Of a stretch of DNA of 64,000 nt, positions 1,692-45,885 are shown in pieces. The stretch lies in the IMG/VR virus record IMGVR_UViG_2703718787_000017. One strand, given 5' to 3'. The notes beneath the pieces are model-generated. The model was not told the origin of the DNA. It worked only from the letters and a program-made list of their open reading frames with translations, and did not search any database. Numbering within the stretch: position 1 is the stretch's first letter; the number at the start of each line of letters is the position of its first letter. This stretch comes from a virus. Its lineage: Duplodnaviria > Heunggongvirae > Uroviricota > Caudoviricetes. The position numbers were made by a program, and so were the translations under genes.

Positions 1692-1724
1692 TTCACGATA
1701 TTCCATTAATACCATTTCCTGATG

Positions 1725-1749
1725 CCCGGCCATTGTGCCGGGTTTTTTT
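1725..1749 (+). terminator. rho-independent terminator-like hairpin (CCCGGC-cattgt-GCCGGG followed by T7 run)
   Basis: GC stem plus U-run between the 421-aa gene and the giant gene; may act as attenuator. Confidence 0.5.
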
Positions 1750-1760
1750 ATGGAGTCTGT

Positions 1761-4700: not shown

Positions 4701-7700
4701 GCAGGCTGGGGGGAGAGCGTAAAAAAAGTACGACACAGTGTATCGGAAATGCTGAACGGAACGGTCAGCGCGAAACGCCTCGCAGAATGGATGGAAGGCA
4801 GAATGCCCTCCCGTTACGCGGACACCTGGCAACTGTTACGCACTCTGCCACCCTCACAGATGGACAAGGCTTCTGCTTATCGGGTGGTATCGGGTGTGTA
4901 TCAGGCGGCAGGAGGGAAGCGTTACGATCCGCCACAGAAACTTTATTCACTGCGCAATAAGGACAATAAGGGGAGTAACCTCTTTTTCTCGGAAAGCAGG
5001 GATGAATTACTGGCAAAGGCGAAAGTCTGGTTTGCAGAGCAGGAGGAAAAATCACAGGCGAAAGGTGATGAAAAAACAGCACCGTCTCCGGATGACAAAA
5101 TCCGCTTTGACGTTTACCGGAATACCCGCAGTGGCGATATTTTTATCGCTTACGGTAAAAACAAAATGCGGGTGAGAGGTGGCTTTAAGTCAGCCAGTGA
5201 TGCGCGTAAGTACATTGATTTACATCGTGATGAGCTTGTTCGTCATGTGAAGGAGATGCGGGAGATTTCGCGTGAGGAGCAGCGCAACGCCACCAACCGC
5301 GACCGTACCGGACCAGAACGCCGCAAGGGGGATGTTTCACCGGAGCAGTTCAGTGATGCGTTTGGTTTTCGTGGTGTGCAGTTTGGTAATTATGTGGAAA
5401 GTCCGCGTCGTCAGGCTGATTTGAACCGGGCTTATGACTCGCTGCATGACCTGGCTGACGTGCTGAATGTACCGACAAAAGCGCTTTCTCTGAACGGTCG
5501 TCTTGGGCTTGCTTTTGGTGCCCGTGGTAAGGGTAAGGCGGCGGCACACTATGAGTCAGGTGAGGTGGCAATCAACCTGACAAAAGGTAACGGACCGGGT
5601 GCGCTGGCGCACGAATGGTTCCATTCTCTGGATAATTATTTTGGTCGTTATGACGTTTCCAGTGACGGGAAAATTACGTCAGGTGGCGACTTTATGACGG
5701 AAGCACAGCGTGTCAGGCGCATATTTAAAGACGGCAGGTATGTTGATGCTGAATATCCGGTACGTCAGGAGGTTTACGACGCTTTTAAAGGTGTGATTCA
5801 GGCCATTAAAAACAGTGACATGCCGCGTCGTTCAGCGCTTCTTGATGAGGTGCGCTCAAAACCGTACTGGTCAACGGATGTTGAAATGGCGGCACGTGCC
5901 TTTGAGCGTTATGTTCAGGATAAGGCGCGTATGGCTGGCGTGGAGAATGATTATCTGGTCAATATCCGTAAGGCACCTGAGCACAACACAGATAACACCT
6001 ACGCTTATCCGACGAATGCGGAACTGGATGGCGGTATTCGTGAGGCATTCGATCACCTGTTCCGCACCCTGAAAACCCGTGAGACGGACAAGGGCGTTGC
6101 GTTTTATTCCCGTAAGGGCATGACCCGCACACCTGAAGGTAATCTCATTTCGGATGTTAACCGTAGTGCGGAAGCCAAAGGCAGCCCGGTCCCGCAGGTT
6201 GAAGCGGTTGCCCGTGGCGTGATGAGCGGCATTAAGGACAGTGACCTGACGGTCCGTGTGGTGAAGTCACAGAAAGAGGCTGAAGCGCTGGCGGGTGAAT
6301 CGTTCGACGGTTACGGCAGGGTGCACGCATTCTATCGTCCGGATAAACGAGAAATTGTCCTGGTGGCGGATAACATCCCTGACGGGCAGACCGTACGCGA
6401 GAAGTTGCGTCACGAGATTATCCACCATGCCATGGAGCATGTTGTCACGCCAGCGGAATATCAGACGATTATCAAAACCGTGCTGAAAACCCGCGACAGT
6501 GATAACGCCACCATCCGTGAAGCCTGGCGTAAGGTTGATGCGTCCTATGGTAAGGAATCACCGGAAGTACAGGCGGGTGAATTTCTGGCACATATGGCGG
6601 AGAAACAGCCGAATAAATTCGTGGCGGCATGGGAGCGTGTTGTTGCCCTGGTCAAAGGGGTACTGCGTCGTACGGGGTTACTGAAGCCGACGGAACTGAA
6701 CGATATCAGACTTGTTCGCGAGACCATCCGTACGTTAGGCCAGCGTGTGCGGGAAGGTTACACGCCGCGTGAGGATGGCGTGGGCGCATCGTCTCAGTAC
6801 TCCCGTAGTGGTAAGCCTGATCCGTTCAAAGTGCCGGAAGGTGAGGGTGAACGTTATCGCGATGACCTTGCCAGAATGATGAAATCTCTGCGTACCACAG
6901 ATTTAACGGTAAACATCGGGCGTACGCCGCCGGTATTGCGTCACCTTGGTGCACCGGATTTGCCGCTGGTTATTTCCCGCGATACTGTGCGGAAGGCCAC
7001 CAATGGTGTGAAACATGTGGTGCCGATGGATGTTATCGAGAGACTACCGGAACTGATGCACGATCCGGATGCAATTTACCGCTCAGCGACAGAAAGAAAT
7101 GCGGTTGTGATGCTGCTTGATGCCGTGGATAAAAATGGTGATCCGGTAGTGTCTGCGGTGCATATGAAGGCAACCCAAAAACTTCTGGAAGTTAACCGTA
7201 TTGCTTCTGTTTACGGAACGGAAAACGGGAAAAAACTGAAGAGTATGGAAACGGCTGGCTTAACATTATACAGGAGAGAAAAACTAAACCCTGATGGTTC
7301 TCTGTACAGAGGGCTCCAATTGCCCAAAGATGAGCACTCCCGTCAGGGTTCTGCGGATAAAATACTCTATCCTGAAGATATTCGCAAGGGGCCGTATTAC
7401 TCCCGTACCAGCAGTCTGACACCGGAAGAGACAATTGCATCGCGTTTTGTGCGCCAGATGCAGGATAAATTCCAGGTGCTGAAAGCTGTTCAGGAGAATA
7501 TCCGTAAAACTGGTGGAAAAATAGACGACAGTAACAACGCTTATATGGCGGAAGAACTCTTCCACGGGAAGGCGGAAAACGACCTGAACGTGATGAAGGA
7601 GCGCTACGTTCAGCCACTGGCTAAATTACTGGCGGACTACAAAATTGCGCAGGCCGATCTGGATGAGTACCTCTACGCCCGTCACGCGCCGGAACGTAAC

Positions 7701-10142
7701 GCGCATATCGCGAAAATCAACCCGAAAATGCCGGACGGCGGTTCGGGGATGACCAACGCGGAGGCGGCGGAAATCATGCAGCGTGTACGTAACAGCGGCA
7801 AACAGGCACAGTATGACCGTCTGGCAGGGATTGTTGACGATATGCTGGCCCGTCGCCGTGAGCTTATCCGTGAGGCAGGACTGGAAGAGAGCGGCGTGGT
7901 GGATGCCTGGCAGAAAGCCTACCGTTACTACGTTCCCCTGAAAGGGCAGGATGTTGACGGTGTGGTGTCACTGCCACGTACAGGCAAGGGATTCACCATC
8001 GGCGGGCGTGAAAGTAAGCAGGCCATGGGGCGCGCATCCCGCGCACAGTCTCCTTCCACTCAGGCGATACAGGATTTGAGCGAATCACTGATCCGCAATC
8101 GCAAAAATGAAGTGGGTAACGCCTTCCTGAAACTGGTACAGGATAATCCCGACAAGGATTACTGGCAGGTATTCACCGATGACAGACCGGATACCATGCG
8201 GACGATTGCAGAGCGCAAGGACAAGGAAACTGGTGAAACCATTCGCGAAGTTGTCGAACGCCCTGTACCGATGGCAATGATGGCAGACCGGTACTTCACC
8301 ACCAAAAAGAACGGCAAAACGTACTACATCAAACTCCATGATCCGCGCCTGATGCGTGCGATGAAGAATATGGGACCGGAAACCAGTAACGCCGTAATCC
8401 GCACGCTGGGGAAAGTTAACCGCTTCCTGGCAACGGTGAACACGTCGTATAACCCGGAATTCCTGGTCAGTAACTTCATCCGTGACGTACAGACGGCGGT
8501 GATGAACCTGAAGGCGGAGCAGGGAAGGAGCGACGGCAAACTGAAAGGGCTGGATAACTTATCCGCACTGGCTGTGGTGAAAGACAGTCGGTCTGCCATG
8601 TCTGCCGTATACGCCAGTCTGCGTGGTAAAACCCTCACGGGCAACGGTGCGCAGTGGCAGAAGGTGTGGAAAGAGTTTGTTGAGGACGGAGGTAAAACCG
8701 GCTGGTTTAACATGGGTGACCTTGAAGGCCAGCAGAAGGAAATGGATCGCCTTGTATCGCTGGCGAAGGGAGGATGGAAAGGCCAGAGTATCGGTGCATG
8801 GAATTCGTTCCTTAACCTTGTCGAGGATGCCAACGGGGCGGTTGAAAACGCTCTGCGTCTTTCTGCCTATAAACACGCCCGTGATGCCGGTTTGTCACGC
8901 CAGCAGGCGGCGTCTCTTGCCAAAAACATGACGGTGAACTTTAACCGTCGTGGTGAGCAGGGGGCGCTGATGAACTCGCTGTACATGTTCGCCAACGCCA
9001 GTATTCAGGGAACGGCAAATCTGGTGAGAACGCTCGGACATCTTAATGGTGAGGGACCTTTACTGGAGCGCCTTCGCTGGAAGAATCTGAATGTTCCGCA
9101 GAAAATCGCGCTTGCCGCTGTGGGAGCGGGTTATCTGCTTGGCTCGCTTAACCGCAGCGTGGCGGGTGAGGATGATGACGGGGTTAACTGGTATGACAAA
9201 GTACCGTCTCATGTGAAAGAGCGTAACCTCGTCATTATGAAATCGGTGTTCGGGGGCAAGGCCGGAGAGTACTGGAGTATTCCTCTGCCTTACGGGTACA
9301 ACGTTTTCTTCCTGCTTGGTCACACAGCCGAAGGGGTGGCAGCGGGCGACCTGACCGCTTCACGTGCTGCCGGTAATGTTGTTGGTGGTGTGCTTGGGGC
9401 ATTCAGTCCTGTGGGCAGTGAAACGTCGGAAACACTGTCCGGGGCATTGCTGAAAAATGCAGCGCCGACCATTCTGCGTCCGTTTGCGAACCTTGCCATG
9501 AATGAAAACTTCATGGGGGCGCAGATTTACCAGGAGAACATGCCGTTTGGTACACCAAAACCTGACAGCCAGCTGGGAAGACGTTCAACGCCAGAAGCGT
9601 ACAAGGCGTTTGCATCCTGGCTGAATGCGTTCTCAGGTGGCAGCCAGTACCGTCCCGGCGCGGTGGATATCACACCGGAATCGCTGAAATTCTGGATTGA
9701 CTATATCTCCGGAGGGACAGGGCGCTTCATTTCCAAAACCACGGATGCGGCGGTGAAATCGCTGAATGGTATTGATATACCGGAACAGCAGGTGCCCTTC
9801 CTGGGGAAAATTTCGGGGGAGGTGATGCCGTATGCAGACCAGCAGAAGATGTACGACCGGATGACAGAGATTGCGCAGTATCACGCAGAGCTGAAGAGTC
9901 TGACCGGTGCAGAAAGAACGGCGTTCATTGACGAGAACAACGGAAAATTGTCGATGAACGGGCTTATGCAGGATACCCGGAAGAGACTGAAGGATTTGCG
10001 TAAACAGCGTGATGCCATTTATGCCGACAGTTCTCTCAGTCTGGCGCAGCAGGCGGCGATAGTGAAATCGGTAGAGCGGGATATGAAGGTTGCCGTGGAT
10101 CGCTTTAACCGCGAGTACAACAAAAAAGTGGGAGTGGATTAA
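1761..10142 (+). CDS. giant multidomain 'polyvalent-type' protein (about 2793 aa) with HExxH zincin-like motif (HEWFH at 5610-5624), second H-E-x-x-H-H motif near 6411, Pro/Glu-rich low-complexity linker and Gly/Ala-rich N- and C-terminal segments
   Basis: Single uninterrupted 8.4-kb frame; start ATG at 1761 preceded by GGAG; HExxH motif read directly; domain architecture otherwise unresolved without profile search. Confidence 0.8.
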   Translation: MAYSEEQRPEAQLGNQNRNSLNIQQPGETDSYEAFFSDPNRWKDNSTSFSLGDVLPTMGKGFAQSVRGTGEMARGLGDAMIQSPVKTGARILNEFSRMGLPGVATVQDIFAGGSRGADEVIDTLPDGKNAVTDTVGKGLKATGKAVSDGAEATDEWLTGKMSPGAVRALNTPMTEGYDDSAVWVAKGVNLIGALVPDMVAGGVAKKVGDVTLRKMLTAGLEKKYIAAGMQPERATALAAEAVDKKMPDLFQAGLITHSTASAQGQSAMAAADAVLNADYSELAQSPKFQQTFLSIDADPQHAQLTDRQKMDLAKERVADEVRAQLATDPELLAVNAMAAKLGDAQLFNLVTRGTAKTVKSGIVRNATEQGAINAAQGGYSRYQENTALRETAGMDVSPWEGVADATIEGAAFGAAMGAPSGAVAGYRGRRQAAEEAAMRDAETVQQDDAAPQPESVDPVAQHRESMQGMNREQLLEQYADADMATEGDASAAHRREAASQLLNELDEQAKRQAVMNELKAKPRSELLEEYRRLSQKEERTETEEQQFQAIREVIRPQQEVTPEAQSQPENAEDGNGSIYPTVRFRDPNEVRIEINGNGASRPAERIEKVRPDNRYFTDEKSAMGSDVFRNAAATGLKPSVVKKGETQYAVEMDNPAFSEDVATETINTLADGERIADADPMEQPAFMRDPRFRGFTGDDTEVQARLARGNVPTAEELVRSQMAEGDAGPTAQELTERPRLPAPGDIHPGQGYPLPGEVARTPDENQAGRGGRFTTTGEVKGQSFQKGQALAPENAAGRQGETLEGEMVRRGLPSPDAQNATAPVREGLPAPDITHNVRMPQPDQLPRTVRNSLPELAQQAEVRRQAGGNRDIPQPETIAPESETTVATDREATVRGGEVRGKKIEDFGEEIKGAAKHRYAQLAETLGKTLEDRDYVTQPLSKLFPKPDYAKLASEGADADTLAMIALYRSDIPVKTKHNTAGWGESVKKVRHSVSEMLNGTVSAKRLAEWMEGRMPSRYADTWQLLRTLPPSQMDKASAYRVVSGVYQAAGGKRYDPPQKLYSLRNKDNKGSNLFFSESRDELLAKAKVWFAEQEEKSQAKGDEKTAPSPDDKIRFDVYRNTRSGDIFIAYGKNKMRVRGGFKSASDARKYIDLHRDELVRHVKEMREISREEQRNATNRDRTGPERRKGDVSPEQFSDAFGFRGVQFGNYVESPRRQADLNRAYDSLHDLADVLNVPTKALSLNGRLGLAFGARGKGKAAAHYESGEVAINLTKGNGPGALAHEWFHSLDNYFGRYDVSSDGKITSGGDFMTEAQRVRRIFKDGRYVDAEYPVRQEVYDAFKGVIQAIKNSDMPRRSALLDEVRSKPYWSTDVEMAARAFERYVQDKARMAGVENDYLVNIRKAPEHNTDNTYAYPTNAELDGGIREAFDHLFRTLKTRETDKGVAFYSRKGMTRTPEGNLISDVNRSAEAKGSPVPQVEAVARGVMSGIKDSDLTVRVVKSQKEAEALAGESFDGYGRVHAFYRPDKREIVLVADNIPDGQTVREKLRHEIIHHAMEHVVTPAEYQTIIKTVLKTRDSDNATIREAWRKVDASYGKESPEVQAGEFLAHMAEKQPNKFVAAWERVVALVKGVLRRTGLLKPTELNDIRLVRETIRTLGQRVREGYTPREDGVGASSQYSRSGKPDPFKVPEGEGERYRDDLARMMKSLRTTDLTVNIGRTPPVLRHLGAPDLPLVISRDTVRKATNGVKHVVPMDVIERLPELMHDPDAIYRSATERNAVVMLLDAVDKNGDPVVSAVHMKATQKLLEVNRIASVYGTENGKKLKSMETAGLTLYRREKLNPDGSLYRGLQLPKDEHSRQGSADKILYPEDIRKGPYYSRTSSLTPEETIASRFVRQMQDKFQVLKAVQENIRKTGGKIDDSNNAYMAEELFHGKAENDLNVMKERYVQPLAKLLADYKIAQADLDEYLYARHAPERNAHIAKINPKMPDGGSGMTNAEAAEIMQRVRNSGKQAQYDRLAGIVDDMLARRRELIREAGLEESGVVDAWQKAYRYYVPLKGQDVDGVVSLPRTGKGFTIGGRESKQAMGRASRAQSPSTQAIQDLSESLIRNRKNEVGNAFLKLVQDNPDKDYWQVFTDDRPDTMRTIAERKDKETGETIREVVERPVPMAMMADRYFTTKKNGKTYYIKLHDPRLMRAMKNMGPETSNAVIRTLGKVNRFLATVNTSYNPEFLVSNFIRDVQTAVMNLKAEQGRSDGKLKGLDNLSALAVVKDSRSAMSAVYASLRGKTLTGNGAQWQKVWKEFVEDGGKTGWFNMGDLEGQQKEMDRLVSLAKGGWKGQSIGAWNSFLNLVEDANGAVENALRLSAYKHARDAGLSRQQAASLAKNMTVNFNRRGEQGALMNSLYMFANASIQGTANLVRTLGHLNGEGPLLERLRWKNLNVPQKIALAAVGAGYLLGSLNRSVAGEDDDGVNWYDKVPSHVKERNLVIMKSVFGGKAGEYWSIPLPYGYNVFFLLGHTAEGVAAGDLTASRAAGNVVGGVLGAFSPVGSETSETLSGALLKNAAPTILRPFANLAMNENFMGAQIYQENMPFGTPKPDSQLGRRSTPEAYKAFASWLNAFSGGSQYRPGAVDITPESLKFWIDYISGGTGRFISKTTDAAVKSLNGIDIPEQQVPFLGKISGEVMPYADQQKMYDRMTEIAQYHAELKSLTGAERTAFIDENNGKLSMNGLMQDTRKRLKDLRKQRDAIYADSSLSLAQQAAIVKSVERDMKVAVDRFNREYNKKVGVD

Positions 10143-14094: not shown

Positions 14095-14343
14095 GATGAC
14101 CTCCTTTGGCTTTTTTCGAGAAATGCCACCACAAAATGTGGTGCCGGGAGGCTCGAAACGGCCCAAAAGATACCGCGGACTTATTCCCCTTGCGGGTGTT
14201 GTATTCGTCGCCCTCCCGACATTGATCGGGGATGTGACCGCACACTGTGCTATCACTGAATAACAGGCATAAAAAATCCAACACTGACGGGGTTGGTTTA
14301 ATCCGCTTTTGGGAGGTTTTCGAGGCCTCGGCGCGGAGTATAG

Positions 14344-14631: not shown

Positions 14632-14957
14632 AATTATGACTCCTGACGTTTTAGTATTGACTGCCACCTTAGTGGGGTGGCGGGCTTCAACTACCGCGTC
14701 AGACGGCGGAGCGTATTTCCCGAAAGGGTATTGTATTAGGCTCTCTCGACCCGCCATTGATATGGCGATACCTGTAAACAGGCATAAAAAAGCCGCAAAG
14801 CTATCGGGTGCGGTTGACCGCTGACGTTGTAGTGCAGTCAGTATGCGATAGCTCTGGCAGATTTGTCAAATCGTGCAGTAACATCCTTTTCTTCCTTGCC
14901 ATTTCTCAATGATGACAAAGGGTGGATTCGGATTGGTATTGGGACAAAAGTGAGACA

Positions 14958-18736: not shown

Positions 18737-20341
18737 ATGACTGACATTAACCATGATAATACTGTATGTCCATCCAGTTCTTTCTCTGGGTCTCCCTATC
18801 TGTATCAGCAAGTCTGCACCTCAAGTCCTGACACAAGGCTGACACAAATCAATATACTCAGCGTAGCTAAGCCTCAGTTAGTCCGTAGAGCCAATGGTCG
18901 ATATACTATCCGCTTCAGACTCAAGGGACAGACCATCCCGTTTCTTTCAGTATCGACCCGAAGCACAGACAGGAGAGTAGCCACAATGCGTCAGAGAGAG
19001 CTTGCAGCCACAGCTAAGACATTCCTACTAGACAAGCCTGAAGTTTCGCTACAGGAGCTTACAGAGCACCTCCGGTCTATGGCTGAGCAGTTCCTGACAG
19101 ACGCCAGTGATGACTACTGGAATGGACTTGAGGTCGCTACTCTGGTGGACGAGAAGTCCAACCTGAAGGAGCTAGCCGCTACGCAAGCCTTGAGTCTGGA
19201 CCAGCAGAAGGGCATAAGGTTAGCGCTTGAAGTCCTGACCGCAGCACAGCAGAGGGTAGACACTGGTGATGCCTCTGGTCTGATTAAGCTGATTGATGAT
19301 AATAACCATACTGATTACTCAACTATAGGCGACTATACGTCCATTCTGAAGAATGAGCAGGGGGATAGACCAGCAGTTTTCACACAGGTTACTGCTCCTT
19401 GCAGTCACAGCGAGCGTCAGCCATCTGTGGTTTTTTCAAGCCTAGTGTCCTCGCTGCTGGCTGAGAAGGTCCAGACCCTGAAGTCCTCCAGCTACAAGGA
19501 CCTGTCGTCCTCACTGAATACCGTCTCTCGGTTCTTACCTGAAGACATGGACCTGATGTCCCGCTCTGAGTGGCTGGCTGTCAGGGACTCTATGCTTGCT
19601 TCTGAGGTGAGACCATCGACAATCAACAAGCTGCTGACCAAAGCGAAGATGTGTCTCGATTATGGCCTGATGAATGGGCAACTTGAGGGCCGCAACCCTA
19701 TTGAACGGATGAAGCTGACCAAGGATATCGACTCCAAGCGCAGAGCGTTCACAGACGAGGAGCTGGATGGACTTCTTGTCCGGGTAGAGGCTGAGTATCA
19801 GTTCACACGACATACCGCTCACACGACCTCTGAGGCTCGCAGGTGGGCGACTCTGGTCTCTGTGGTCACTGGCGCTCGGTCTGCTGAGGTCTGCCACCTG
19901 ACTAAACGTGACATTGTAACCTTGGACAATGGACTGGTCTGTATCGACATCAATGAAGATGGGGGCGGGAAGTCCGTAAAGAACAAGCATTCAGTCCGAC
20001 TTGTACCGCTGACCGATGGCGCTTATGGGTTTGACCTGAAGTCCTTCCTCGAATGGGTAGACATGCAGCCTGACGAGGGTCCTCTCTTCGGGATGACTCC
20101 AAGCGCATACTCTAGCTGGTTTAACTCAAGGGTCCTCACAGAGGCTCTCCCAGACGCTGAGAACGTCTCTCTACACAGTCTGAGACATTGGCTGGCGACC
20201 CGGATGAAAGAGCGTGGAGTCAATCTGGTGGACGCTCAGGGCATCTTAGGTCACAGCAGTCAGTCCATTACGTATGACCTGTACGGGAAAGGACATGCAG
20301 TTGGTAGGCTGGCTGATGTGCTGAAGACAGCTTTACTTTAA
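18737..20341 (+). CDS. tyrosine recombinase (integrase), 534 aa with extended N-terminal region
   Basis: C-terminal catalytic pattern: …GARSAEVCHL… (Arg), HSLRHWLATR (His-x-x-Arg), ITYDLYGK (Tyr); gene sits just inside the left repeat. Confidence 0.85.
   Translation: MTDINHDNTVCPSSSFSGSPYLYQQVCTSSPDTRLTQINILSVAKPQLVRRANGRYTIRFRLKGQTIPFLSVSTRSTDRRVATMRQRELAATAKTFLLDKPEVSLQELTEHLRSMAEQFLTDASDDYWNGLEVATLVDEKSNLKELAATQALSLDQQKGIRLALEVLTAAQQRVDTGDASGLIKLIDDNNHTDYSTIGDYTSILKNEQGDRPAVFTQVTAPCSHSERQPSVVFSSLVSSLLAEKVQTLKSSSYKDLSSSLNTVSRFLPEDMDLMSRSEWLAVRDSMLASEVRPSTINKLLTKAKMCLDYGLMNGQLEGRNPIERMKLTKDIDSKRRAFTDEELDGLLVRVEAEYQFTRHTAHTTSEARRWATLVSVVTGARSAEVCHLTKRDIVTLDNGLVCIDINEDGGGKSVKNKHSVRLVPLTDGAYGFDLKSFLEWVDMQPDEGPLFGMTPSAYSSWFNSRVLTEALPDAENVSLHSLRHWLATRMKERGVNLVDAQGILGHSSQSITYDLYGKGHAVGRLADVLKTALL
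18829..18850. repeat. two direct copies of TGACACAA (putative integrase arm-type sites, left end)
   Basis: CTGACACAAGGCTGACACAAAT; same motif appears three times near the right end. Confidence 0.45.
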
Positions 20342-20554
20342 GTAGGAAGACCCAAGGTGTAGACCATATACGGCTTGATGGTTGAACCTTGGGTCGCTGA
20401 AGTCTGACTGAAGTTAGGGAGGGTGATAATAATCATAATCCCTCCTGACTATAGGCCCACTGGTTCGCCTTCGGCTGTCCGACTCTAAGTCTGTATGTGG
20501 TCTTATTTAAACTGGTTCCCTAACTCCAGTACTCCAAATTCCTATGGTCTCCTC

Positions 20555-20760
20555 TTGACATTCCTGTTTAACTGTGAGTCGCCTCTGGTCTCTCTTTATA
20601 TATACTTCCTTAATTCCTGAGGCGTCTTTAGTCCTTGACATTCGGTCCAACCTGTGAGTCACATCCGGTCCTCCCTCTATATATATACTTCCTTAATTCC
20701 TAGGGTCGCCTTAATCCTTGACATCCAGTCCAACCTGTGAGTCACATCCTGTCGCTAGCA
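20555..20760 (+). repeat. about 80-bp tandem repeat, 3 units, each with TTGACA, inverted repeat TGTGA-G-TCACA and a TATATATA block; candidate host-RNAP promoter/operator array
   Basis: TTGACA at 20555, 20635, 20718; units align over most of their length; third unit diverges at its 3' end. Confidence 0.6.
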
Positions 20761-20799
20761 AGCTAGCTGTCGCGCTACTGTATGCATCACCAGTGGTGG

Positions 20800-20822
20800 A
20801 CTTGATTATCACTATAGGGGAA
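20800..20822 (+). promoter_or_regulatory. T7-group single-subunit RNAP promoter-like 23-mer ACTTGATTATCACTATAGGGGAA (predicted +1 at G 20817)
   Basis: Positions -8 to +3 identical to T7 consensus TCACTATAGGG; upstream -17 to -9 differs from T7/T3/SP6; lies 30 nt upstream of an RBS and ATG. Confidence 0.5.
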
Positions 20823-20851
20823 CCAACTAATTCAACTACAGGAGATACTCT

Positions 20852-21220
20852 ATGGCACGACCAATCGCAACTCACGACAACACGTTCACCAAAGCCTACT
20901 TGCAGCAGCACTGCGGGGACCTGCTGTCATTCGATGGTCAGGGCGACCTGAGTGGTTGGCTGGATGATGTCCTTACTGGTGCTGGTCGCCTGAACGAATC
21001 AATGGCAAGCAATACCAAGCCTGTCAGCCCATACTTGATTCTGACCCAACTACTAACGCACGACACATTAACTGTAAGCGCTGTGCAGGAGTCCCTGAGC
21101 CGTAAGCGTGTCGCCTTGGGTGAACCTATGGTTTCAACTCGCTACGCTCGCTACGTCTATGCTACCGTCGTCAGCGCCAGTAAATCCGTCCAGTACCACG
21201 CCAGTAAAGCTGGTTCATGA
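20852..21220 (+). CDS. hypothetical protein (122 aa), first gene downstream of promoter-like site 1
   Basis: ORF with AGGAG 8 nt upstream of ATG; no family recognised. Confidence 0.6.
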   Translation: MARPIATHDNTFTKAYLQQHCGDLLSFDGQGDLSGWLDDVLTGAGRLNESMASNTKPVSPYLILTQLLTHDTLTVSAVQESLSRKRVALGEPMVSTRYARYVYATVVSASKSVQYHASKAGS

Positions 21221-21228
21221 TTACGGAC

Positions 21229-21251
21229 CCTAAACTATCACTATAGGGAAG
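21229..21251 (+). promoter_or_regulatory. second T7-group RNAP promoter-like 23-mer CCTAAACTATCACTATAGGGAAG (predicted +1 at G 21246)
   Basis: Shares ATCACTATAGGG with site 1; same -8 to +3 core as T7 consensus. Confidence 0.5.
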
Positions 21252-21781
21252 AGCAGCCTCCACCTCTGGTCTTGATGCGTCAAGTTATGCGGAAGCTCTC
21301 CCGACATTAAGTATCTCTCCTAAGCAATCAAGGTCTGTGACCGCCTCTGTCATTCCTGCATCCCGTGAGTGTTCTTCTGTCGTCTCGGTTAGTAGCTCGT
21401 CTACTCACTACACTGACTTAAGTCTATCAGCACCTACCAGATGCACGCCTGACATGCGGTCCCGCCTTATATGCACATGGAGAACATGGTCCAAATGTAG
21501 CCTACGAAATTTTCGTAAGCTTCGGGCAGGACCAAGGCTGGTAGAAGTCTAACCAACCCAGAAAACGGGTTTGTTAAAAAGATTAACATGGGTCACTTAG
21601 GGCAGGACGCTTCTCTACCGTCCCGCCTTTATTGACACCTGCAGGAAATCATGGTCATCCCCGACCAATCAAATCAACCCTATTCACTTTCGTAAGCACT
21701 TTCGGCGGCTCCATTTGGTAGCGCTGAATAGGTGTGGAGACCCGCAGGGGAACGAGAGTGCTTTCTAAAGGAGCTACCTTA
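21252..21781 (+). other. 530-nt apparently untranslated leader with internal repeats (TCCCGCCTT x2; TTCGTAAGC-N-CTTCGG x2); possible structured RNA, processing sites or replication origin
   Basis: No convincing ORF with RBS (the 71-aa ORF at 21337 is Ser-rich with no SD); repeats read directly. Confidence 0.3.
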
Positions 21782-22873
21782 ATGAACATCCATAAATTCA
21801 TCGACATGAACGAAGTCATCGCCAGCAATCATCCTCTTGCCAAAGGTACCACTGACAGCGTAACGCAGGTCATCGTGTCACACCTGAAGTCCGGCGATGC
21901 AGGTATCGACATCCTGAATGCGCCTAAGGCCGCTAGCGATATGTCTGCCAGCTTCCTGAATGACTTGAAGAGCAAGTATCGTGTCGTGGCTGGTCATAAC
22001 TCTGAGGGTCACATTGATGCATGGCTGGCGCATAAGCACAGCGGACGCCGGGTGACGACTAAAAGCAATGACAAGGGTTATCGCGCTGTGAGCGTGAATG
22101 GTCGCCCGTATCAGGAGCACCGCCTTATCGTGGCCCTGTTCTATGATGTGGCACTGCCGGGCTGGGTGGTAGTTAATCACGCTGTGTCCTGCACCATTTG
22201 GAACGAAGGCAAATCAAACCATCCGTTCAACCTCCGATTAACGACATCATATGGTAACCAGCTTGATAAGAAGGTCCGCGAAGGTGTTCGCAATAAGTTC
22301 ACCGGGTACTACTTCGATGAATATCGTGGCAAGTGGCGCGTCCAGATGAAGCGGCCTTTCGCTGGTGGTCCGCAGCATTTCGGCATGTACGACACCGAAG
22401 CTGAGGCCTACATTGTCCGCTGCGCTGTCCTCCACCAGCATCTTGGTGCGTTCTGGGCGATGACCACCGGGGAATCCGGTCTCGTGCCCCGAGTCAAACC
22501 TGACGGTTCTCTGGTACTGCCTACTGAGCATGGTTACGATTGGGCGGAAAACCTGCCTTATCCTGAGGACTGGGACGACGAGTTCAAGGCCCGGCTGGAG
22601 GAGATGAAGCTGTACTGGGACGCATATCATGTGTTCGGTATTGAAGACGAAGAATACTTCGGCGACTGTGTGTCAGGGCTTGATGTGAACGCAGTAGTGT
22701 TCAACGGCGTGCCTGCCATTATCGACATCACAGAAGGACTTCCGGTGTCATATGCTCACTGGTTCGGACCAAGCCAACGCTTCGAGTTCACCAACTACTA
22801 CCAGCGCTGCATTCACGCCTGTGACCTTGATGCGGAACCTGAAGAGGAAGACTGGATGGAGAACGATTTCTGA
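21782..22873 (+). CDS. HNH endonuclease with AP2-type DNA-binding domain (homing-endonuclease-like)
   Basis: YQEHRLIVALFYD…VVNH motif (HNH) followed by RLTTSYGN…YYFDEYRGKWRVQM…FGMYDTEAEA (AP2-like); RBS AAAGGAG. Confidence 0.75.
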   Translation: MNIHKFIDMNEVIASNHPLAKGTTDSVTQVIVSHLKSGDAGIDILNAPKAASDMSASFLNDLKSKYRVVAGHNSEGHIDAWLAHKHSGRRVTTKSNDKGYRAVSVNGRPYQEHRLIVALFYDVALPGWVVVNHAVSCTIWNEGKSNHPFNLRLTTSYGNQLDKKVREGVRNKFTGYYFDEYRGKWRVQMKRPFAGGPQHFGMYDTEAEAYIVRCAVLHQHLGAFWAMTTGESGLVPRVKPDGSLVLPTEHGYDWAENLPYPEDWDDEFKARLEEMKLYWDAYHVFGIEDEEYFGDCVSGLDVNAVVFNGVPAIIDITEGLPVSYAHWFGPSQRFEFTNYYQRCIHACDLDAEPEEEDWMENDF

Positions 22874-23085
22874 TGACAATTAAACAGCATATCGACCCTC
22901 GCACCGATATCGGCAGGGCAACACTTCGTTATCGTGGTCTGCCTACTCGTCATCTTCTGTCAATGCTGGGGATGGGTACTGATTCATCCGAGCGCCCTTA
23001 CTACAATCGAGACGAGCTGATAGCAATGCTGGTGGACCGTGATTTGAATAATCAGTTGCGTCGAGCCTTTGCTAAGCAGTCCTGA
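22873..23085 (+). CDS. hypothetical protein (70 aa)
   Basis: ATG overlaps stop of upstream gene (TGATG coupling). Confidence 0.5.
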   Translation: MTIKQHIDPRTDIGRATLRYRGLPTRHLLSMLGMGTDSSERPYYNRDELIAMLVDRDLNNQLRRAFAKQS

Positions 23086-23208
23086 CCATACCACCTTAAT
23101 TTAAACACCTTTTGAGAATGACCGATGCGGGGAGACCGTAGGCATAACTGTGTCTGCGATACCGATAGTTCTCACCTTCTCAAGAGGAGTAATTACTATG
23201 TCTAGCAA

Positions 23209-23707
23209 AGCTAGTGCGTTATTCAACAACAACGACTGGAAACTGTCTGTCACCGACATCAATCTCTATGAAAATACTGTGAATCTGGATGGGCAGTCCT
23301 ACCCGTTGTCTCTGGCTATCAAGACCCTCATTCCGGGCTACCTGTCAGGCTTACCGTCCACCAGCAGCGCGGCGATGGAGCTGTTAGAGGCTCTGGCTGA
23401 AGCTGGTGTAGCTATTGGCAACTTCTTCAGTAATGACCTGATGACCGCCTATGGTCGCCGCCAGCAGAACAAGCGAGCTGAGGCTGAGCGTATCGCTAAA
23501 GAGCAGCGCATTCAGGCCGAGCGCATGCGTGAAGAGAACATGACTGATGCAGAGTGGCAGAAAGAGCTACAGCGCCGCGAACAGGTCAAAGCTGAACGCC
23601 GGACCTATGGTGAGAACCTCCGCAGTGCTACCCATTCCGCTGGTCGCTCCCGTGCCGCTATTGTCGCTGACATTGAGTCAGGCGGTAACTGGATGGACAG
23701 CCTCTAA
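23209..23707 (+). CDS. hypothetical protein (166 aa) with charged coiled-coil C-terminal half
   Basis: RBS AGAGGAG 9 nt upstream of ATG; no family recognised; scaffold-like composition is speculation. Confidence 0.6.
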
Positions 23708-23781
23708 GACAGACACACAAGTGGTCCTGACCTGATGTCGGGACCCACAGTATCTAAAACTAATTTAGGAGATTGATTATT

Positions 23782-24771
23782 ATGACCATGATTAAAGATA
23801 GCTATCAGTTCGGCATTGAGCCAGTACGTATCACCGACACCGACAACATTCAGGTAAACGAAGGTCTTCCGACTAACGCCGACCCTCAGGTCTATGCCTT
23901 CCAGTTAGCTAAGCTGGTGAAGACCATGCTCAATTCTGTACTTAAAGACGCTCAGGATAACATTCCGTTCCCTGTAGAAGTCCTGCCAGCTCGCAACAGC
24001 TTACCGACGCCAATCATTGCTCACACTCTGGCTGACCGCTCTGTGGTCGTTCCTGTCCGTGGTGGTAAACGACCTGAAGTCGTGACCGCTCCGTCTGGTA
24101 CTGAAATCACCGTTGAGCCGATTGAGCAAGCTATCCTCGTGTCCCACCAAACCAAGCTATGGGACGCTAAGTCATCCACCGGATTCACTCAGGGCACACT
24201 TCAGCAGGACGCTATGAACATCTGTGAGAATGTGGTCCGTACCATCAACGCTCGCATGGTCGACGTTCTGGAGTCCTCCAAACTGTTGAAGACCGTAGAG
24301 CTTCCTGTCCTGACTGGTAGCCTGACCGCTAAGGCAGACGATATCATGGACGCTCTGTATGACAACACCGAGTCCTCTTTCGGCTCTGAAGTGTCTGATT
24401 ATGGCATCATCGCCCATGAGTCCCAACTGAAAGCGCTGTCCCGTCTGGCTGCTAAACAGGGCTTCTCTGGTGAAGACGCTATCGTGGATATGCTGGGAAC
24501 AGACATCGCCTACTACAACGGTGAAGACAAGGGTGTGTTCATGCTGGCTAAACGCTTCACGGCCCTGAGCTTCGGTTGCTTCCGTCATGATGGCGAGAAC
24601 ATTACCGTGGTCTTATCCCGGGATGGTGACTCTCAGTCTAACTCTCTGGAAATCCTCGGCAAGGTCTTCGTGGTTGCTGAAGCTGCTACGACAATCAAGA
24701 TGGGTACTGGTAGTGCTACTGCTGTCCTGCCTGTAGTCAAACGCCTGAAGTTCACCAAGACCGAAGCGTAA
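23782..24771 (+). CDS. hypothetical protein (329 aa); structural (capsid-like) role possible but unverified
   Basis: RBS TTAGGAG upstream; largest non-enzymatic ORF of the island. Confidence 0.65.
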   Translation: MTMIKDSYQFGIEPVRITDTDNIQVNEGLPTNADPQVYAFQLAKLVKTMLNSVLKDAQDNIPFPVEVLPARNSLPTPIIAHTLADRSVVVPVRGGKRPEVVTAPSGTEITVEPIEQAILVSHQTKLWDAKSSTGFTQGTLQQDAMNICENVVRTINARMVDVLESSKLLKTVELPVLTGSLTAKADDIMDALYDNTESSFGSEVSDYGIIAHESQLKALSRLAAKQGFSGEDAIVDMLGTDIAYYNGEDKGVFMLAKRFTALSFGCFRHDGENITVVLSRDGDSQSNSLEILGKVFVVAEAATTIKMGTGSATAVLPVVKRLKFTKTEA

Positions 24772-24934
24772 GACCATGAGCAGAGGTAAGTCTGGACTGA
24801 ATATCAGCAGGACTTCAGGTGGTGGATTATCAATGTAATTAATAACTATGGTCTGGACTTCGGTCTGGACCTTATTAGCGAAGTTATCCACAGCTTAATA
24901 ACATATACAACTTTATTCACATTAAGGAGGACGC

Positions 24935-25018
24935 ATGGACCTGCATAAAGTCTATCTTATCGTCTTCCTGTTGAAGCTGGTGCTGGTGGTCGTGCTTACA
25001 GTCAGGGTACGGCTGTGA
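24935..25018 (+). CDS. small hydrophobic peptide (27 aa, MDLHKVYLIVFLLKLVLVVVLTVRVRL)
   Basis: Strong RBS TAAGGAGG 5 nt upstream; single predicted TM helix; too short to be in the ORF track. Confidence 0.3.
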   Translation: MDLHKVYLIVFLLKLVLVVVLTVRVRL

Positions 25019-25128
25019 GCTGGCGAGCAGCTAACGATGAGTTTTGGACCAAAAGTTAGAGACCTGATTCAATACAATTAAGACACCAATGTTCCCCGGT
25101 GCCACCCTGAGTCCAGACCGAGGCCACC

Positions 25129-25140
25129 GGGGGGGGGGGG
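25129..25140. repeat. homopolymeric G12 tract
   Basis: Twelve consecutive G read directly, near the island right end. Confidence 0.9.
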
Positions 25141-25170
25141 CTGACCAGCCGTCTAGACATCCCGTCTAAT

Positions 25171-25204
25171 GACACAAGGCTGACACAAAGCCTGACACAA
25201 AGTC
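25171..25204. repeat. three direct copies of TGACACAA(G/A) (putative integrase arm-type sites, right end)
   Basis: ATGACACAAGGCTGACACAAAGCCTGACACAAAG; mirrors the two copies at 18829-18850. Confidence 0.5.
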
Positions 25205-36783: not shown

Positions 36784-36836
36784 CGGCGGCAGAGCAGTCA
36801 CGGAGTAAAACTGATACCGCCAAACGTCACCAGAAA
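36784..36836 (-). ncRNA. dicF: DicF small RNA (ftsZ-targeting Hfq-dependent sRNA)
   Basis: Minus-strand sequence TTTCTGGTGACGTTTGGCGGTATCAGTTTTACTCCGTGACTGCTCTGCCGCC matches remembered DicF; 175 nt upstream of dicB as in K-12. Confidence 0.8.
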
Positions 36837-41596: not shown

Positions 41597-42208
41597 TTTT
41601 ATATTATGCCAACGGAGCGTAGCAGTGTTTCTATATATAGTACGCCTACCTTAATTTTCAAATAATCATGATTAATGAGCAGGTCATCAGTGCAAGCAAT
41701 GACCTGCTCATCTTGTTGAAATTAGAGGAAATCTTGCAGCCATGATATGGCTTAAAATAACGTTTGATTATTTTACCTGCTGTTTGTCCCTGGTTTAAAG
41801 TCGGTTGTCTGATTTGATTACGCGCAACTGACGCTTACGTATTGAAGTAACGAGCACGAAGACACATATTTATCAGTGCCTGTATACGTCAAGAGCAGGA
41901 GATTTATGTGCTGGTTCTCAAATGCACGCTGGCTATTGTGGCTGTAATGGCAATTTATTGTCTTGTTATTGTTCTTATGGATCACCTTTCTGATTGATTT
42001 CATATTGGCGAGGTAACGGTAGTTAAGTAGAATGGCTGCGGGTGCTTGAGGCTATCTGCCTCGGGCATGAACACCAACGGCAGATAGAGAAAAGCCCCAG
42101 TTAACATTACGCGTCCTGCAAGACGCTTAACATTAATCTGAGGCCAATTTCATGCTAGACACATGTAGGTTAGCCTCTTACGTGCCGAAAGGCAAGGAGA
42201 AGCAGGCT

Positions 42209-42364
42209 ATGAAGCAGCAAAAGGCGATGTTAATCGCCCTGATCGTCATCTGTTTAACCGTCATAGTGACGGCACTGGTAACGAGGAAAGACCTCTGCGA
42301 GGTACGAATCCGAACCGGCCAGACGGAGGTCGCTGTCTTCACAGCTTACGAACCTGAGGAGTAA
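42209..42364 (+). CDS. hokD: Hok-family type I toxin HokD (RelF)
   Basis: 51 aa MKQQKAMLIALIVICLTVIVTALVTRKDLCEVRIRTGQTEVAVFTAYEPEE. Confidence 0.85.
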   Translation: MKQQKAMLIALIVICLTVIVTALVTRKDLCEVRIRTGQTEVAVFTAYEPEE

Positions 42365-45669: not shown

Positions 45670-45885
45670 ATGTCAAATAAAATGACTGGTTTAGTAAAAT
45701 GGTTTAACGCTGATAAAGGTTTCGGCTTTATTTCTCCTGTTGATGGTAGTAAAGATGTGTTTGTGCATTTTTCTGCGATTCAGAATGATAATTATCGAAC
45801 CTTATTTGAAGGTCAAAAGGTTACCTTCTCTATAGAGAGTGGTGCTAAAGGTCCTGCAGCAGTAAATGTCATCATTACTGATTAA
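45670..45885 (+). CDS. cspB: cold-shock protein CspB-like
   Basis: [38 protein letters not shown]… CSD with RNP motifs; long AT-rich 5' leader. Confidence 0.9.

What the first reader, a model, noticed from the sequence alone, without database searches (positions are those of the whole stretch)
21252..21781. 530-nt non-coding leader downstream of the second phage-type promoter, with internal repeated motifs
No credible ORF, yet it contains paired repeats (TCCCGCCTT x2; TTCGTAAGC…CTTCGG x2). Could encode a structured RNA, RNase III processing sites or an origin activated by phage-RNAP transcription, as for the T7 primary origin.
Basis: inference. Interest (0 to 1): 0.45.

Follow-up and report, generated by a model that had tools for sequence, protein, structure and literature searches.

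The report
Structured RNA leader of phage satellite
The 530-base gap is the untranslated, folded start of an RNA that a T7-like phage's own polymerase would make from a small capsid-encoding island in the E. coli chromosome; the repeats that drew attention are a recombination scar, but the first ~220 bases are a conserved, previously uncatalogued RNA structure.

Summary
Observation confirmed: 21252-21781 has no credible ORF, and both repeat pairs are there. The repeats are not a family feature. They come from a 161-nt mosaic insert (21459-21619) seen in 2 of 166 matching E. coli genomes. It holds a truncated second copy of the cassette UTR and a 75-nt fragment of a lost cargo gene.

What is conserved:
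- an exact Kayfunavirus-type RNAP promoter (21230-21247, +1 at 21246);
- a ~225-nt domain (21246-21470) present in every related island, whatever gene follows;
- a cassette-specific UTR (21620-21781).

The 225-nt domain folds into eight helices. 97.8% of cells are paired, 11 pairs show compensatory changes, and one-sided changes are G-U wobbles, so the + strand RNA is under selection. It has no Rfam match and was absent from the ~665 kb of helper-type phage contigs searched.

The host element is a 6.3-kb integrative island in ynfE. It carries an HK97-fold capsid gene and a mimic of the helper's concatemer junction, and I found no description of it.

Best reading: a cis-acting structured leader of the helper-RNAP-driven operon. 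A T7-type origin is not supported (no AT-rich tract) but not excluded. RNase III processing is plausible and untested. The function is inferred.

The parts
21229..21251 (+). Phage-type (T7-group, Kayfunavirus-like) RNA polymerase promoter. The core CTAAACTATCACTATAGG lies at 21230-21247 and the predicted +1 is G21246.
   Evidence: The exact 18-mer recurs in 77 stretches of ~39-40 kb T7-like IMG/VR genomes, several copies per genome. A 22-nt exact match sits just after the terminase large subunit gene of Kayfunavirus Kc166A. It is invariant in all related islands.
21246..21470 (+). Conserved structured 5' domain of the leader. P1 is the 5' hairpin. P2 is CUUGA-UGCG-UCAAG (21271-21284). A long-range closing helix pairs GACCGC..UGUCA (21339-21352) with UGACA..GCGGUC (21450-21461). 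P6 pairs GCAU (21358-61) with AUGC (21441-44). P7 pairs 21365-71 with 21431-37. P8 is the hairpin AGUAG-CUCGU-CUACU (21391-21405). The domain ends in GUCCCGCCUUAU (21459-21470).
   Evidence: 19-sequence alignment A3 and RNAalifold. In pair counts, 97.8% of cells are paired and 11 pairs have changes on both sides, against 0-3 in slid controls; 0 of 500 shuffles reach the observed score. The covariance model scores 218.5 bits here and finds the domain in divergent islands but not in phage contigs. No Rfam hit.
21459..21619 (+). 161-nt mosaic insertion specific to this variant, and the source of the 'paired repeats'. Positions 21459-21492 are a second junction/UTR start, 31 of 34 nt identical to the L003-type UTR. 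Positions ~21505-21527 are a degenerate copy of the UUUCGUAAGC..UUCGG segment. Positions 21528-21602 are a fragment of a cargo gene.
   Evidence: The segment is absent from all other aligned islands. Only 2 of 166 genomes cover it. Positions 21528-21602 are 98-100% identical to the interior of CDS WP_000199921 in L005, L008 and L013. The near-identical locus L001 annotates this stretch as an incomplete pseudogene.
21543..21591 (+). 49-nt element UCUAACCAACCCAGAAAACGGGUUUGUUAAAAAGAUUAACAUGGGUC, inside the gene fragment. It recurs in non-coding leaders of other islands.
   Evidence: 96-100% matches in L006, L007, L014 (twice), L096, L159 and L113.
21620..21781 (+). Cassette-type 'A' 5' UTR of the first cargo gene. 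A long imperfect hairpin pairs UUCACUUU (21683-21690) with the Shine-Dalgarno AAAGGAG (21767-21773). An overlapping alternative helix pairs CCUAUUCA (21679-86) with UGAAUAGG (21725-32).
   Evidence: The UTR is shared at ~74-99% identity by islands with different downstream genes (AP2/HNH here; a 129-aa protein plus KilA-N in L003, L004 and L093). RNAalifold gives 36 pairs, 4 of them with compensatory changes. Matching 1-nt deletions on both arms of the alternative helix in L008 and L094 were read from the sequences and not tested statistically.
21782..22873 (+). First cargo gene (363 aa, AP2/HNH-endonuclease-like), which the leader precedes. This position is variable between islands.
   Evidence: PHROG 99 HNH endonuclease, E = 2e-16. 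RefSeq annotates an 'AP2 domain-containing protein'. Other islands carry KilA-N, Rha or other genes at this position.
20800..20822 (+). First phage-type promoter (GACTTGATTATCACTATAGGGGAACC), upstream of ORF122. Its transcripts would read into the leader.
18829..25189 (+). The host element: a 6.3-kb integrative island in ynfE, bounded by exact 20-nt direct repeats at 18829-48 and 25170-89. It carries an integrase, ORF122, cargo genes, a ~169-aa protein, an HK97-fold capsid protein (23785-24771) and a concatemer-junction mimic (25035-25119).

Best explanation
The gap is the 5' leader of the main operon of a small integrative, capsid-encoding, satellite-like island. That operon is predicted to be transcribed only by the RNA polymerase of an infecting Kayfunavirus-type (T7-like) phage.

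The transcript would start at G21246. Its first ~225 nt fold into a conserved multi-helix domain. This domain is closed by a long-range helix and ends in a CCUU(U)AU motif.

A cassette-specific UTR follows. Its long hairpin sequesters the Shine-Dalgarno sequence of the first cargo gene. In this particular island, the two parts are separated by 161 nt of recombination debris, which creates the 'paired repeats'.

Inferred mechanism: the leader acts in cis. It would protect the 5' end of a fast, ribosome-uncoupled phage-RNAP transcript. It would gate or time translation of the cargo gene through SD sequestration, possibly relieved by RNase III cleavage or refolding. It is also the constant segment next to which cargo cassettes are exchanged.

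Shown by analysis: the promoter identity, the conservation, the base-pair covariation, the strand, and the mosaic origin of the repeats. Inferred: transcription on infection, and the stabilising and translational role.
For: 1. Promoter. The 18-mer is identical to a sequence repeated many times in ~40-kb T7-like genomes. A 22-mer is identical to a Kayfunavirus promoter. In related islands the same leader follows a different phage-type promoter, or tandem promoters of two types.

2. Conservation. The 5' domain is present in 166 of 5426 complete E. coli genomes. It occurs at two integration sites (ynfE and tRNA-Gly) and upstream of unrelated cargo genes. It is also present in metagenome and IMG/VR islands.

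3. Structure. 38 pairs in 8 helices; 97.8% of cells are paired, against 30-40% in slid controls. 11 pairs have double changes, against 0-3. 0 of 500 shuffles reach the observed score. The one-sided changes are G-C to G-U and U-A to U-G, which are tolerated only on the + strand RNA. The single-sequence fold has z = -3.7.

4. Specificity. The covariance model recovers divergent islands: L069 at 48.9 bits, and the short form at ~35 bits. It finds nothing in ~665 kb of helper-type phage contigs.

5. No coding. No family hit, and frame-breaking indels in relatives.

6. UTR. The consensus hairpin pairs with the SD sequence.

7. Context. The island has an HK97-fold capsid protein (pLDDT 81.8; 222 Foldseek hits at E <= 1e-3, and all 50 listed are capsid or encapsulin shell proteins). 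It also has an 88-nt mimic of the helper's right-end/left-end junction (E = 3e-9).
Against: - No expression data: transcription from 21246 and any processing are untested.
- The covariation comes from 19 related sequences and few independent events. Several double changes are shared by the same 3 or 6 sequences.
- The SD-sequestering pairs of the UTR never vary, so they are neither supported nor contradicted.
- A merely 'stabilising' 5' UTR does not obviously need ~225 nt with invariant unpaired stretches (21301-21324 and 21417-21429). The true function may be more specific.
- Short-leader islands (L092, L118, L144, L183) keep only the P2 hairpin region, so most of the domain is dispensable in some lineages.
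Confidence: 0.6

Rival explanations
1. T7-type replication origin. The helper RNAP would start at the promoter and its transcript would prime helper DNA polymerase within the leader. The island, which has no replication gene of its own, would then be amplified during infection. This is compatible with the leader also being an mRNA 5' end.
For: No replication protein is recognisable in the island. From established T7 biology (my knowledge, not a tool result), T7 origins are phage promoters. The 22-mer promoter equals the promoter that follows the terminase gene in Kc166A, the position of T7's phiOR 'replication promoter'. The non-coding stretch is kept at 250-680 nt in all islands.
Against: The defining AT-rich tract downstream of the promoter is missing: the lowest GC in 60-nt windows is 40%, and that window lies inside the gene fragment. 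The RNA is C/U-rich (C 69, T 63, G 48, A 45), which does not favour a stable R-loop. Primase-site words are not significantly enriched (4 observed against 1.4 expected, p ~0.06). Conservation follows RNA pairing with G-U wobbles rather than duplex-DNA motifs. The same 18-mer is the general promoter of these phages, not one specific to phiOR.
Confidence: 0.15
2. Stand-alone non-coding RNA. The ~215-225-nt domain would be released from the operon transcript at the junction, by RNase III at the closing helix or by partial termination at GCGGUC-CCGCC-UUUAU. It would then act in trans on the helper or the host, or as a primer or scaffold for the satellite.
For: The conserved domain stops sharply at the junction motif, after which the sequence becomes cassette-specific. 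The closing helix is 6 bp, then a 3x2 internal loop, then 5 bp, and its 3' strand is directly followed by CCUUUAU. Invariant unpaired stretches suggest binding sites.
Against: No complementarity to helper-type phage sequence beyond the promoter was found in ~665 kb or in GenBank phages. The T7-group RNase III box is absent. Three U residues after a long-range helix make a poor T7 class I terminator (my knowledge). No data on RNA ends.
Confidence: 0.15
3. DNA-level site. The region would be bound as duplex DNA, for example as a recognition site for packaging or recombination, or for ORF122 or cargo DNA-binding proteins. The apparent RNA structure would be incidental.
For: The island elsewhere copies helper DNA signals (junction mimic at 25035-25119; hairpin at 20418-20446). 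Motifs such as GGUCyCyCC-UUAUAU recur in the upstream 82-nt repeats. Cargo swapping occurs at the junction.
Against: Compensatory changes and strand-specific G-U wobbles are not expected for duplex-DNA sites. No similarity to helper DNA beyond the promoter.
Confidence: 0.06
4. Decayed coding sequence. The whole gap would be a pseudogene graveyard with no function.
For: 21528-21602 is a fragment of a cargo gene, and 21459-21527 is a truncated UTR copy.
Against: This applies only to the 161-nt insert. The 5' domain and the UTR are conserved across 166 genomes with covariation.
Confidence: 0.03

Closest known systems
5' leaders and RNase III-processed untranslated regions of T7-group phage mRNAs (for example the A1-A3 to R0.3 leader, or the phi10 leader hairpin)
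   Same: It lies directly downstream of a T7-group promoter. It is non-coding and hairpin-rich. It precedes a strong Shine-Dalgarno sequence. A long imperfect duplex lies next to the ribosome-binding site.
   Different: It is much longer, with a multi-helix domain closed by a long-range helix. It lacks the conserved T7-group RNase III box (CUCUUUAACAAU-like), which is present twice in Kc166A's early region and absent from the whole island. It has no sequence or covariance-model match in the phages. It sits in a chromosomal island, not a phage.
T7 replication origins (primary origin phi1.1A/phi1.1B plus AT-rich region; secondary origins at phiOL and phiOR)
   Same: A phage RNAP promoter is followed by non-coding DNA. 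The host element lacks its own replication genes.
   Different: No AT-rich tract. Selection acts on RNA pairing. Primase words are not significantly enriched.
Satellite phage P4 leader / CI RNA immunity region
   Same: A satellite's long untranslated leader with internal repeats and RNA structure, placed ahead of the operon it controls.
   Different: In P4 the repeats are the functional, mutually complementary elements, and the transcript is made by host RNAP (my knowledge). Here the repeats are a scar found in a rare variant. The promoter is of phage-RNAP type, and no sigma-70 promoter was predicted in or just upstream of the leader.
Small satellites of virulent phages (PICMI) and capsid-forming PICIs, as context for the island
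   Same: About 6 kb, with an integrase and att sites, parasitic wiring to a lytic helper, and variable cargo. PICMI is ~6.1 kb and is packaged as concatemers in helper-sized heads (PMC10803314). cf-PICIs encode their own capsid (10.1101/2022.09.08.507074, abstract).
   Different: No AlpA, primase or Fis genes as in PICMI. No packaging module beyond a capsid protein, unlike cf-PICI. Induction would be hard-wired through helper RNAP promoters, and packaging through a copy of the helper's genome-end junction. My literature searches found no description of such an element.

Membership tests
T7-group phage RNAP promoter | A ~23-bp sequence (-17 to +6) with a conserved CACTATAGG core, matching the promoters used repeatedly in one phage lineage. 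| tested here: met
   CTAAACTATCACTATAGG at 21230-21247 gives 77 exact hits in ~40-kb T7-like IMG/VR genomes. A 22-nt exact match occurs in Kayfunavirus Kc166A and PDP351P4.
T7-group phage RNAP promoter | Transcription initiation by the cognate phage RNAP at the first G after TATA. | not testable with these tools
   Needs RNA-seq or in-vitro transcription.
T7-type replication origin | Phage RNAP promoter(s) at the origin. | tested here: met
T7-type replication origin | An AT-rich tract (~60 bp, ~80% AT in T7) immediately downstream, where the RNA-to-DNA transition occurs. | tested here: not met
   GC is 45-55% throughout 21230-21530. The minimum of 40% at 21530-21589 lies in a variant-specific gene fragment.
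T7-type replication origin | Primase recognition sites ((G/T)GGTC, GTGTC) positioned in the origin. | tested here: inconclusive
   4 sites on each strand against ~1.4-1.6 expected (p ~0.06-0.08).
T7-type replication origin | Mapped initiation of DNA synthesis. | not testable with these tools
   Needs replication-intermediate mapping.
T7-group RNase III processing site | An irregular hairpin of about 20 bp or more with an internal loop. | tested here: inconclusive
   The UTR hairpin has ~30 pairs with bulges. The 5'-domain closing helix is 6+5 bp with a 3x2 internal loop. Their shapes are compatible, but this is not diagnostic.
T7-group RNase III processing site | The conserved sequence box shared by T7-group sites (CUCUUUAACAAU-like). 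| tested here: not met
   The pattern is absent from the whole island. It is present twice in Kc166A's early region.
T7-group RNase III processing site | Cleavage by RNase III. | not testable with these tools
   Needs end mapping in rnc+ and rnc- hosts.
Any Rfam RNA family | A covariance-model score at or near the gathering threshold. | tested here: not met
   No hit in the region at gathering thresholds. At E <= 5 there is only a spurious rox2 hit outside the leader.
P4-type leader RNA immunity | Conserved repeated leader segments that are complementary to a processed small RNA from the same leader. | tested here: not met
   The repeats exist only in this variant and 2 database genomes. They are direct copies created by an insertion.
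Phage satellite (context of the leader) | An integrative element with an integrase and att repeats. | tested here: met
   Phage_integrase domain. Exact 20-nt direct repeats 6341 nt apart, interrupting ynfE.
Phage satellite (context of the leader) | Signals or genes that exploit a specific helper, such as packaging-site mimicry or capsid genes. | tested here: met
   Junction mimic at 25035-25119. HK97-fold protein. Helper promoters.
Phage satellite (context of the leader) | Helper-dependent induction, replication and transfer in particles. | not testable with these tools
   The one contig retrieved for a close homologue of the capsid gene is an integrated copy. No virion data are available.

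The most novel reading that the evidence does not exclude
The ~225-nt domain would be a dedicated satellite RNA made by the helper's own polymerase. It would be released at the junction motif and needed for the island's life cycle, for example as the primer or organiser of helper-dependent replication, or as a regulator of the switch from cargo to capsid expression. This would make it the core cis/trans RNA element of a previously undescribed class of capsid-encoding satellites of virulent T7-like phages.
Probability: 0.2. Interest if true: 0.8.

Novelty: new variant of a known kind. Interest (0 to 1): 0.6.

Why it matters
Structured leaders of phage mRNAs are a known kind of element. This one has three unusual properties:
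- It is a covariation-supported RNA domain with no Rfam match.
- It was not found in the helper-type phage contigs searched.
- It sits at the head of the only long operon of a 6.3-kb island that appears to be hard-wired to T7-like phages.

That wiring consists of helper RNAP promoters (sometimes of two specificities in tandem), a copy of the helper's genome-end junction, and the island's own HK97-fold capsid gene. I found no published satellite that parasitises T7-like coliphages in this way.

If the element is what it looks like, the leader is the obvious handle for experiments. It offers a defined transcript start, a defined fold, and a defined boundary at which cargo genes are swapped. It would make several questions testable: how a minimal element is induced, how it may be replicated, and how its expression is timed using only a lytic phage's polymerase.

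Tried and rejected
1. Small protein in the gap. Rejected: no family hits, no ribosome-binding site, and frame-breaking indels. A minus-strand ATG preceded by an SD-like sequence at ~21305 gives a 25-aa ORF whose frame is not kept in relatives.

2. The repeats as functional iterons or processing sites. Rejected: they arise from a variant-specific 161-nt insert.

3. Homology of the leader to helper phage DNA. Only the promoter matches.

4. Antisense targeting of helper ribosome-binding sites by the invariant CU-rich stretch. No match with 5 or fewer mismatches to a real RBS in 665 kb of phage contigs.

5. Sigma-70 promoters or intrinsic terminators in the leader. None predicted.

6. Known RNA families. 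None.

7. Function of the neighbouring proteins, as a clue.
- ORF122 matches only a PHROG of unknown function and has weak hits in unrelated phages.
- The 169-aa protein has no informative hit.
- PADLOC gives nothing.
- The first AlphaFold run on the 328-aa protein, with a shallow alignment, failed at pLDDT 34. The deeper alignment succeeded.

8. Evidence for an excised or episomal form. The one Logan contig retrieved for a close homologue of the capsid protein is an integrated copy.

9. A genome-contig scan with ORF122 found only Shigella. L016 from a pattern scan was a chance match. Most of the 120 metagenome pattern hits were chance matches, and 10 were real islands.

10. Literature searches for T7-promoter islands or satellites of T7-like phages found nothing relevant.

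Full report
**Setting**

The window is E. coli chromosome. It contains ynfF, speG, rspAB and a lambdoid prophage with DicF, sok and cspA elements.

The finding lies in a 6.3-kb insertion that splits ynfE. Exact 20-nt direct repeats (TGACACAAGGCTGACACAAA) bound it at 18829-18848 and 25170-25189.

Gene order, all on the + strand:
- a tyrosine integrase (to 20341; Phage_integrase);
- a 510-nt non-coding stretch with three ~82-nt repeats, and a first phage-type promoter at ~20800-20822;
- ORF122 (20852-21220; a PHROG of unknown function);
- the second phage-type promoter and the gap under study;
- an AP2/HNH-like gene (21782-22873; PHROG 99);
- a 70-aa ORF;
- a ~169-aa ORF;
- a 328-aa ORF (23785-24771).

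**Observation**

Both repeat pairs exist at the stated places. Taken alone they are weak: a self-BLAST gives 79% identity over 38 nt, E = 0.11.

No ORF is credible:
- The longest is a 71-aa GTG ORF with no family match.
- Related islands differ by indels of 4, 13, 14, 27 and 36 nt.

The promoter core CTAAACTATCACTATAGG is at 21230-21247, so the transcript should begin at G21246.

**The promoter**

- The 18-mer occurs in 77 stretches of IMG/VR contigs. Nearly all come from ~39-40 kb T7-like genomes, with several copies per genome.
- A 22-nt exact match occurs in two GenBank Kayfunavirus records. In Kc166A it is the promoter just downstream of the terminase large subunit gene.
- Related islands place the same leader behind a promoter of a second type (…ACCCTCACTATAGGG…), or behind both types in tandem 27 nt apart.

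The element is therefore wired to phage RNA polymerases, sometimes to more than one lineage.

**Comparative anatomy of the gap**

Parts of the leader occur in 166 of 5426 complete E. coli genomes, always on the chromosome.

I fetched 16 E. coli/Shigella/IMG-VR island loci and recovered 10 metagenome islands. Alignment shows four parts.

1. *Conserved 5' domain (21246-21470).* Present in all islands, whether integrated in ynfE or next to tRNA-Gly. It is there whether the upstream gene is ORF122, a DUF4145 protein or an HNH gene. It is also there whatever follows: AP2/HNH, KilA-N, Rha or others. It ends at a junction motif, CCUGACAUGCG-GUCyCrCC-UU(U)AU.

2. *A 161-nt insert in this window only (21459-21619).*
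   - Only two database genomes cover it.
   - Its first 34 nt are a second copy of the junction and UTR start, 31 of 34 nt identical to the L003 type.
   - It then holds a degenerate copy of the UUUCGUAAGC..UUCGG segment.
   - Positions 21528-21602 are 98-100% identical to the interior of a cargo CDS (WP_000199921) in three other islands. RefSeq annotates this stretch as an incomplete pseudogene in the near-identical locus.
   - The 'paired repeats' are therefore a scar of cassette exchange and deletion.

3. *A cassette-specific UTR (21620-21781).* I call this one 'type A'. Islands with a different downstream gene share it. A second, unrelated 'type B' UTR precedes KilA-N and Rha cargo.

4. 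*A short-leader lineage (L092, L118, L144, L183).* It keeps only the P2 hairpin region.

**RNA structure of the 5' domain**

On 19 distinct sequences, RNAalifold predicts:
- a 5' hairpin;
- hairpin P2, yyUGA-UGCG-UCArr;
- a long-range closing helix, GACCGC..UGUCA with UGACA..GCGGUC;
- two nested helices, P6 and P7.

I added the local hairpin AGUAG-CUCGU-CUACU. L093 replaces it with GUGGA-CAGCA-UCCAC.

Counting these 38 pairs:

| Measure | Observed | Controls |
|---|---|---|
| Cells forming standard pairs | 97.8% | 30-40% when 3' partners are slid by 1-3 columns |
| Pairs with changes on both sides | 11 | 0-3 in slid controls |
| Shuffles reaching the observed covariation score | 0 of 500 | |

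- P7 exists in three different self-complementary versions.
- The one-sided changes are G-C to G-U or U-A to U-G. This points to the + strand as RNA, not to duplex DNA or the opposite strand.
- The caveat stated by the tool applies. The sequences are related, and several double changes are shared by the same 3 or 6 sequences, so the number of independent events is small.
- The window's own leader folds better than shuffles (z = -3.7).
- A covariance model built from the alignment scores 218.5 bits in the window. It finds a much more divergent island (L069) at 48.9 bits and the short form at ~35 bits. It finds nothing in ~665 kb of helper-type phage contigs.
- Rfam has no match.

**The type A UTR**

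The consensus fold of six sequences is a long imperfect hairpin. In it, UUCACUUU (21683-21690) and the following AAGCACUUUC pair with GAGAGUGCUUU and the Shine-Dalgarno AAAGGAG (21767-21773).
- Four inner pairs covary.
- The SD pairs never vary, so they are neither supported nor contradicted.
- An overlapping alternative helix pairs CCUAUUCA with UGAAUAGG. It shows a matching 1-nt deletion on both arms in L008 and L094. This hints at a switch or pseudoknot, but I did not test it statistically.

**Testing the origin idea**

- No AT-rich tract follows the promoter. The lowest GC is 40%, inside the gene fragment.
- The 5' domain is C/U-rich.
- Primase words are not significantly enriched.
- The selection visible is on RNA pairing.
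- In favour: the island has no recognisable replication gene. By established T7 biology, phage promoters serve as origins (my knowledge, not a tool result).

I therefore keep the origin as a minority rival. It is compatible with the leader also being an mRNA 5' end.

**Testing the RNase III idea**

Suitable duplexes exist. However, the T7-group box (CUCUUUAACAAU-like) is present twice in Kc166A's early region and absent from the whole island. Cleavage cannot be tested here.

**Trans-acting ideas**

The invariant unpaired stretch CCGACAUUAAGUAUCUCUCCUAAG is the reverse complement of an RBS-like sequence. I found no matching target in the phage contigs and no extended complementarity to phages.

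**Context that changes the weight of the finding**

The 328-aa core protein has only close homologues in the word-indexed search. A profile search found remote relatives, some with C-terminal Ig-like domains.

With a 38-sequence alignment, AlphaFold gives pLDDT 81.8. Foldseek against the PDB gives 222 hits at E <= 1e-3, and all 50 listed are HK97-fold phage capsid or encapsulin shell proteins.

Downstream, 25035-25119 aligns across the joined right and left ends of Kc166A at 71.6% over 88 nt (E = 3e-9). The right-terminal 31 nt are ~97% identical to many of the same phage contigs.

A hairpin at 20418-20446 is 96-100% identical to one lying ~470 nt before the right end of one of these phage contigs (L089).

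In T7-group phages, the RNAP-lysozyme complex pauses at the concatemer junction and recruits the terminase proteins (PMC3276506). A transcript launched at 21246 and reading through the operon would reach the junction mimic.

Together this looks like a minimal, capsid-encoding satellite of virulent T7-like phages. Five literature searches found no description of such an element. The nearest concepts are PICMI (PMC10803314) and capsid-forming PICIs. None of this proves mobilisation. The one contig retrieved for a close homologue of the capsid gene is an integrated copy.

**Verdict**

- The origin idea lacks its defining feature.
- RNase III processing is open.

I commit to a cis-acting structured leader of a helper-RNAP-driven satellite operon. 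It would protect the 5' end and gate translation, with a constant domain next to swappable cassettes. My confidence in this reading as stated is about 0.6: higher that it is a conserved, structured RNA leader, and lower for the specific cis role. I put about 0.2 on a more specific, dedicated RNA function. The function remains inferred until transcripts, RNA ends and mutants are examined.

Noticed in passing
window 25035-25119: An 88-nt stretch aligns across the joined right end and left end of Kayfunavirus Kc166A (71.6% identity, E = 3e-9). The right-terminal ~31 nt (CGATGAGTTTTGGACCAAAAGTTAGAGACCT) are ~97% identical to many T7-like IMG/VR contigs. It looks like a mimic of the helper's concatemer junction and terminase site.
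   Followed up: partly
window 23785-24771: The 328-aa core protein of the island is predicted to have an HK97 fold (pLDDT 81.8). Foldseek gives 222 PDB hits at E <= 1e-3, and all 50 listed are capsid or encapsulin shell proteins. It has no sequence match in GenBank phages, and remote homologues carry C-terminal Ig-like domains. A 6.3-kb island with its own capsid gene is unusual.
   Followed up: partly
window 20418-20446: The hairpin GGGAGGGTGATAATAATCATAATCCCTCC is 96-100% identical to a hairpin that, in one helper-type phage contig (L089), lies ~470 nt before the right genome end. It was the only megablast hit of the region in the phage collection (phiYIO1-1).
   Followed up: partly
window 20554-20753: Three tandem ~80-83-nt repeats each contain TTGACATyCAGTCCAACCTGTGAGTC. 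This resembles the -35 and spacer of an early E. coli-type promoter of Kc166A (TTGACATACAGTCCGACCTATGG), but no acceptable -10 follows, and the promoter scan finds nothing. Function unknown.
   Followed up: partly
L005:3972-4025, L095:3403-3455 and 3972-4025, L097:3395-3455 and 3973-4025, L113: Related islands carry two phage-type promoters of different specificity in tandem, about 27 nt apart (…CCCTCACTATAGGG… then …ACTATCACTATAGGG…). This suggests one element can respond to two lineages of T7-like phages.
   Followed up: partly
window 24935-25018: A 27-codon ORF for a very hydrophobic peptide (MDLHKVYLIVFLLKLVLVVVLTVRVRL) with a strong SD (TAAGGAGG) lies just before the junction mimic. Kc166A has a small membrane-protein gene near its right end in a comparable position.
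   Followed up: no
window 25129-25140: A run of 12 G lies between the junction mimic and attR. It may be a slippage-prone tract.
   Followed up: no
window 18829-25189: The island interrupts ynfE (DMSO/selenate reductase subunit A), while the paralogue ynfF is intact. Other family members sit next to a tRNA-Gly gene (L095, L097) or near ygeQ (L009). Several copies are broken by IS3 or IS21 elements.
   Followed up: partly
window 14135-14220 and 14671-14755 (- strand): Two Rfam sRNA-Xcc1 hits (74.5 and 53 bits) lie in a prophage-like region upstream of ynfF.
   Followed up: no
window 1722-10142: A 2806-aa ORF is annotated in the near-identical genome as an LPD5 domain-containing protein, inside prophage-like DNA.
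   Followed up: no
window 36784-36835, 42040-42214, 45509-45932, 48410-48794: DicF, sok and two cspA-thermoregulator Rfam hits mark a lambdoid (Qin/Rac-like) prophage in the right half of the window.
   Followed up: no
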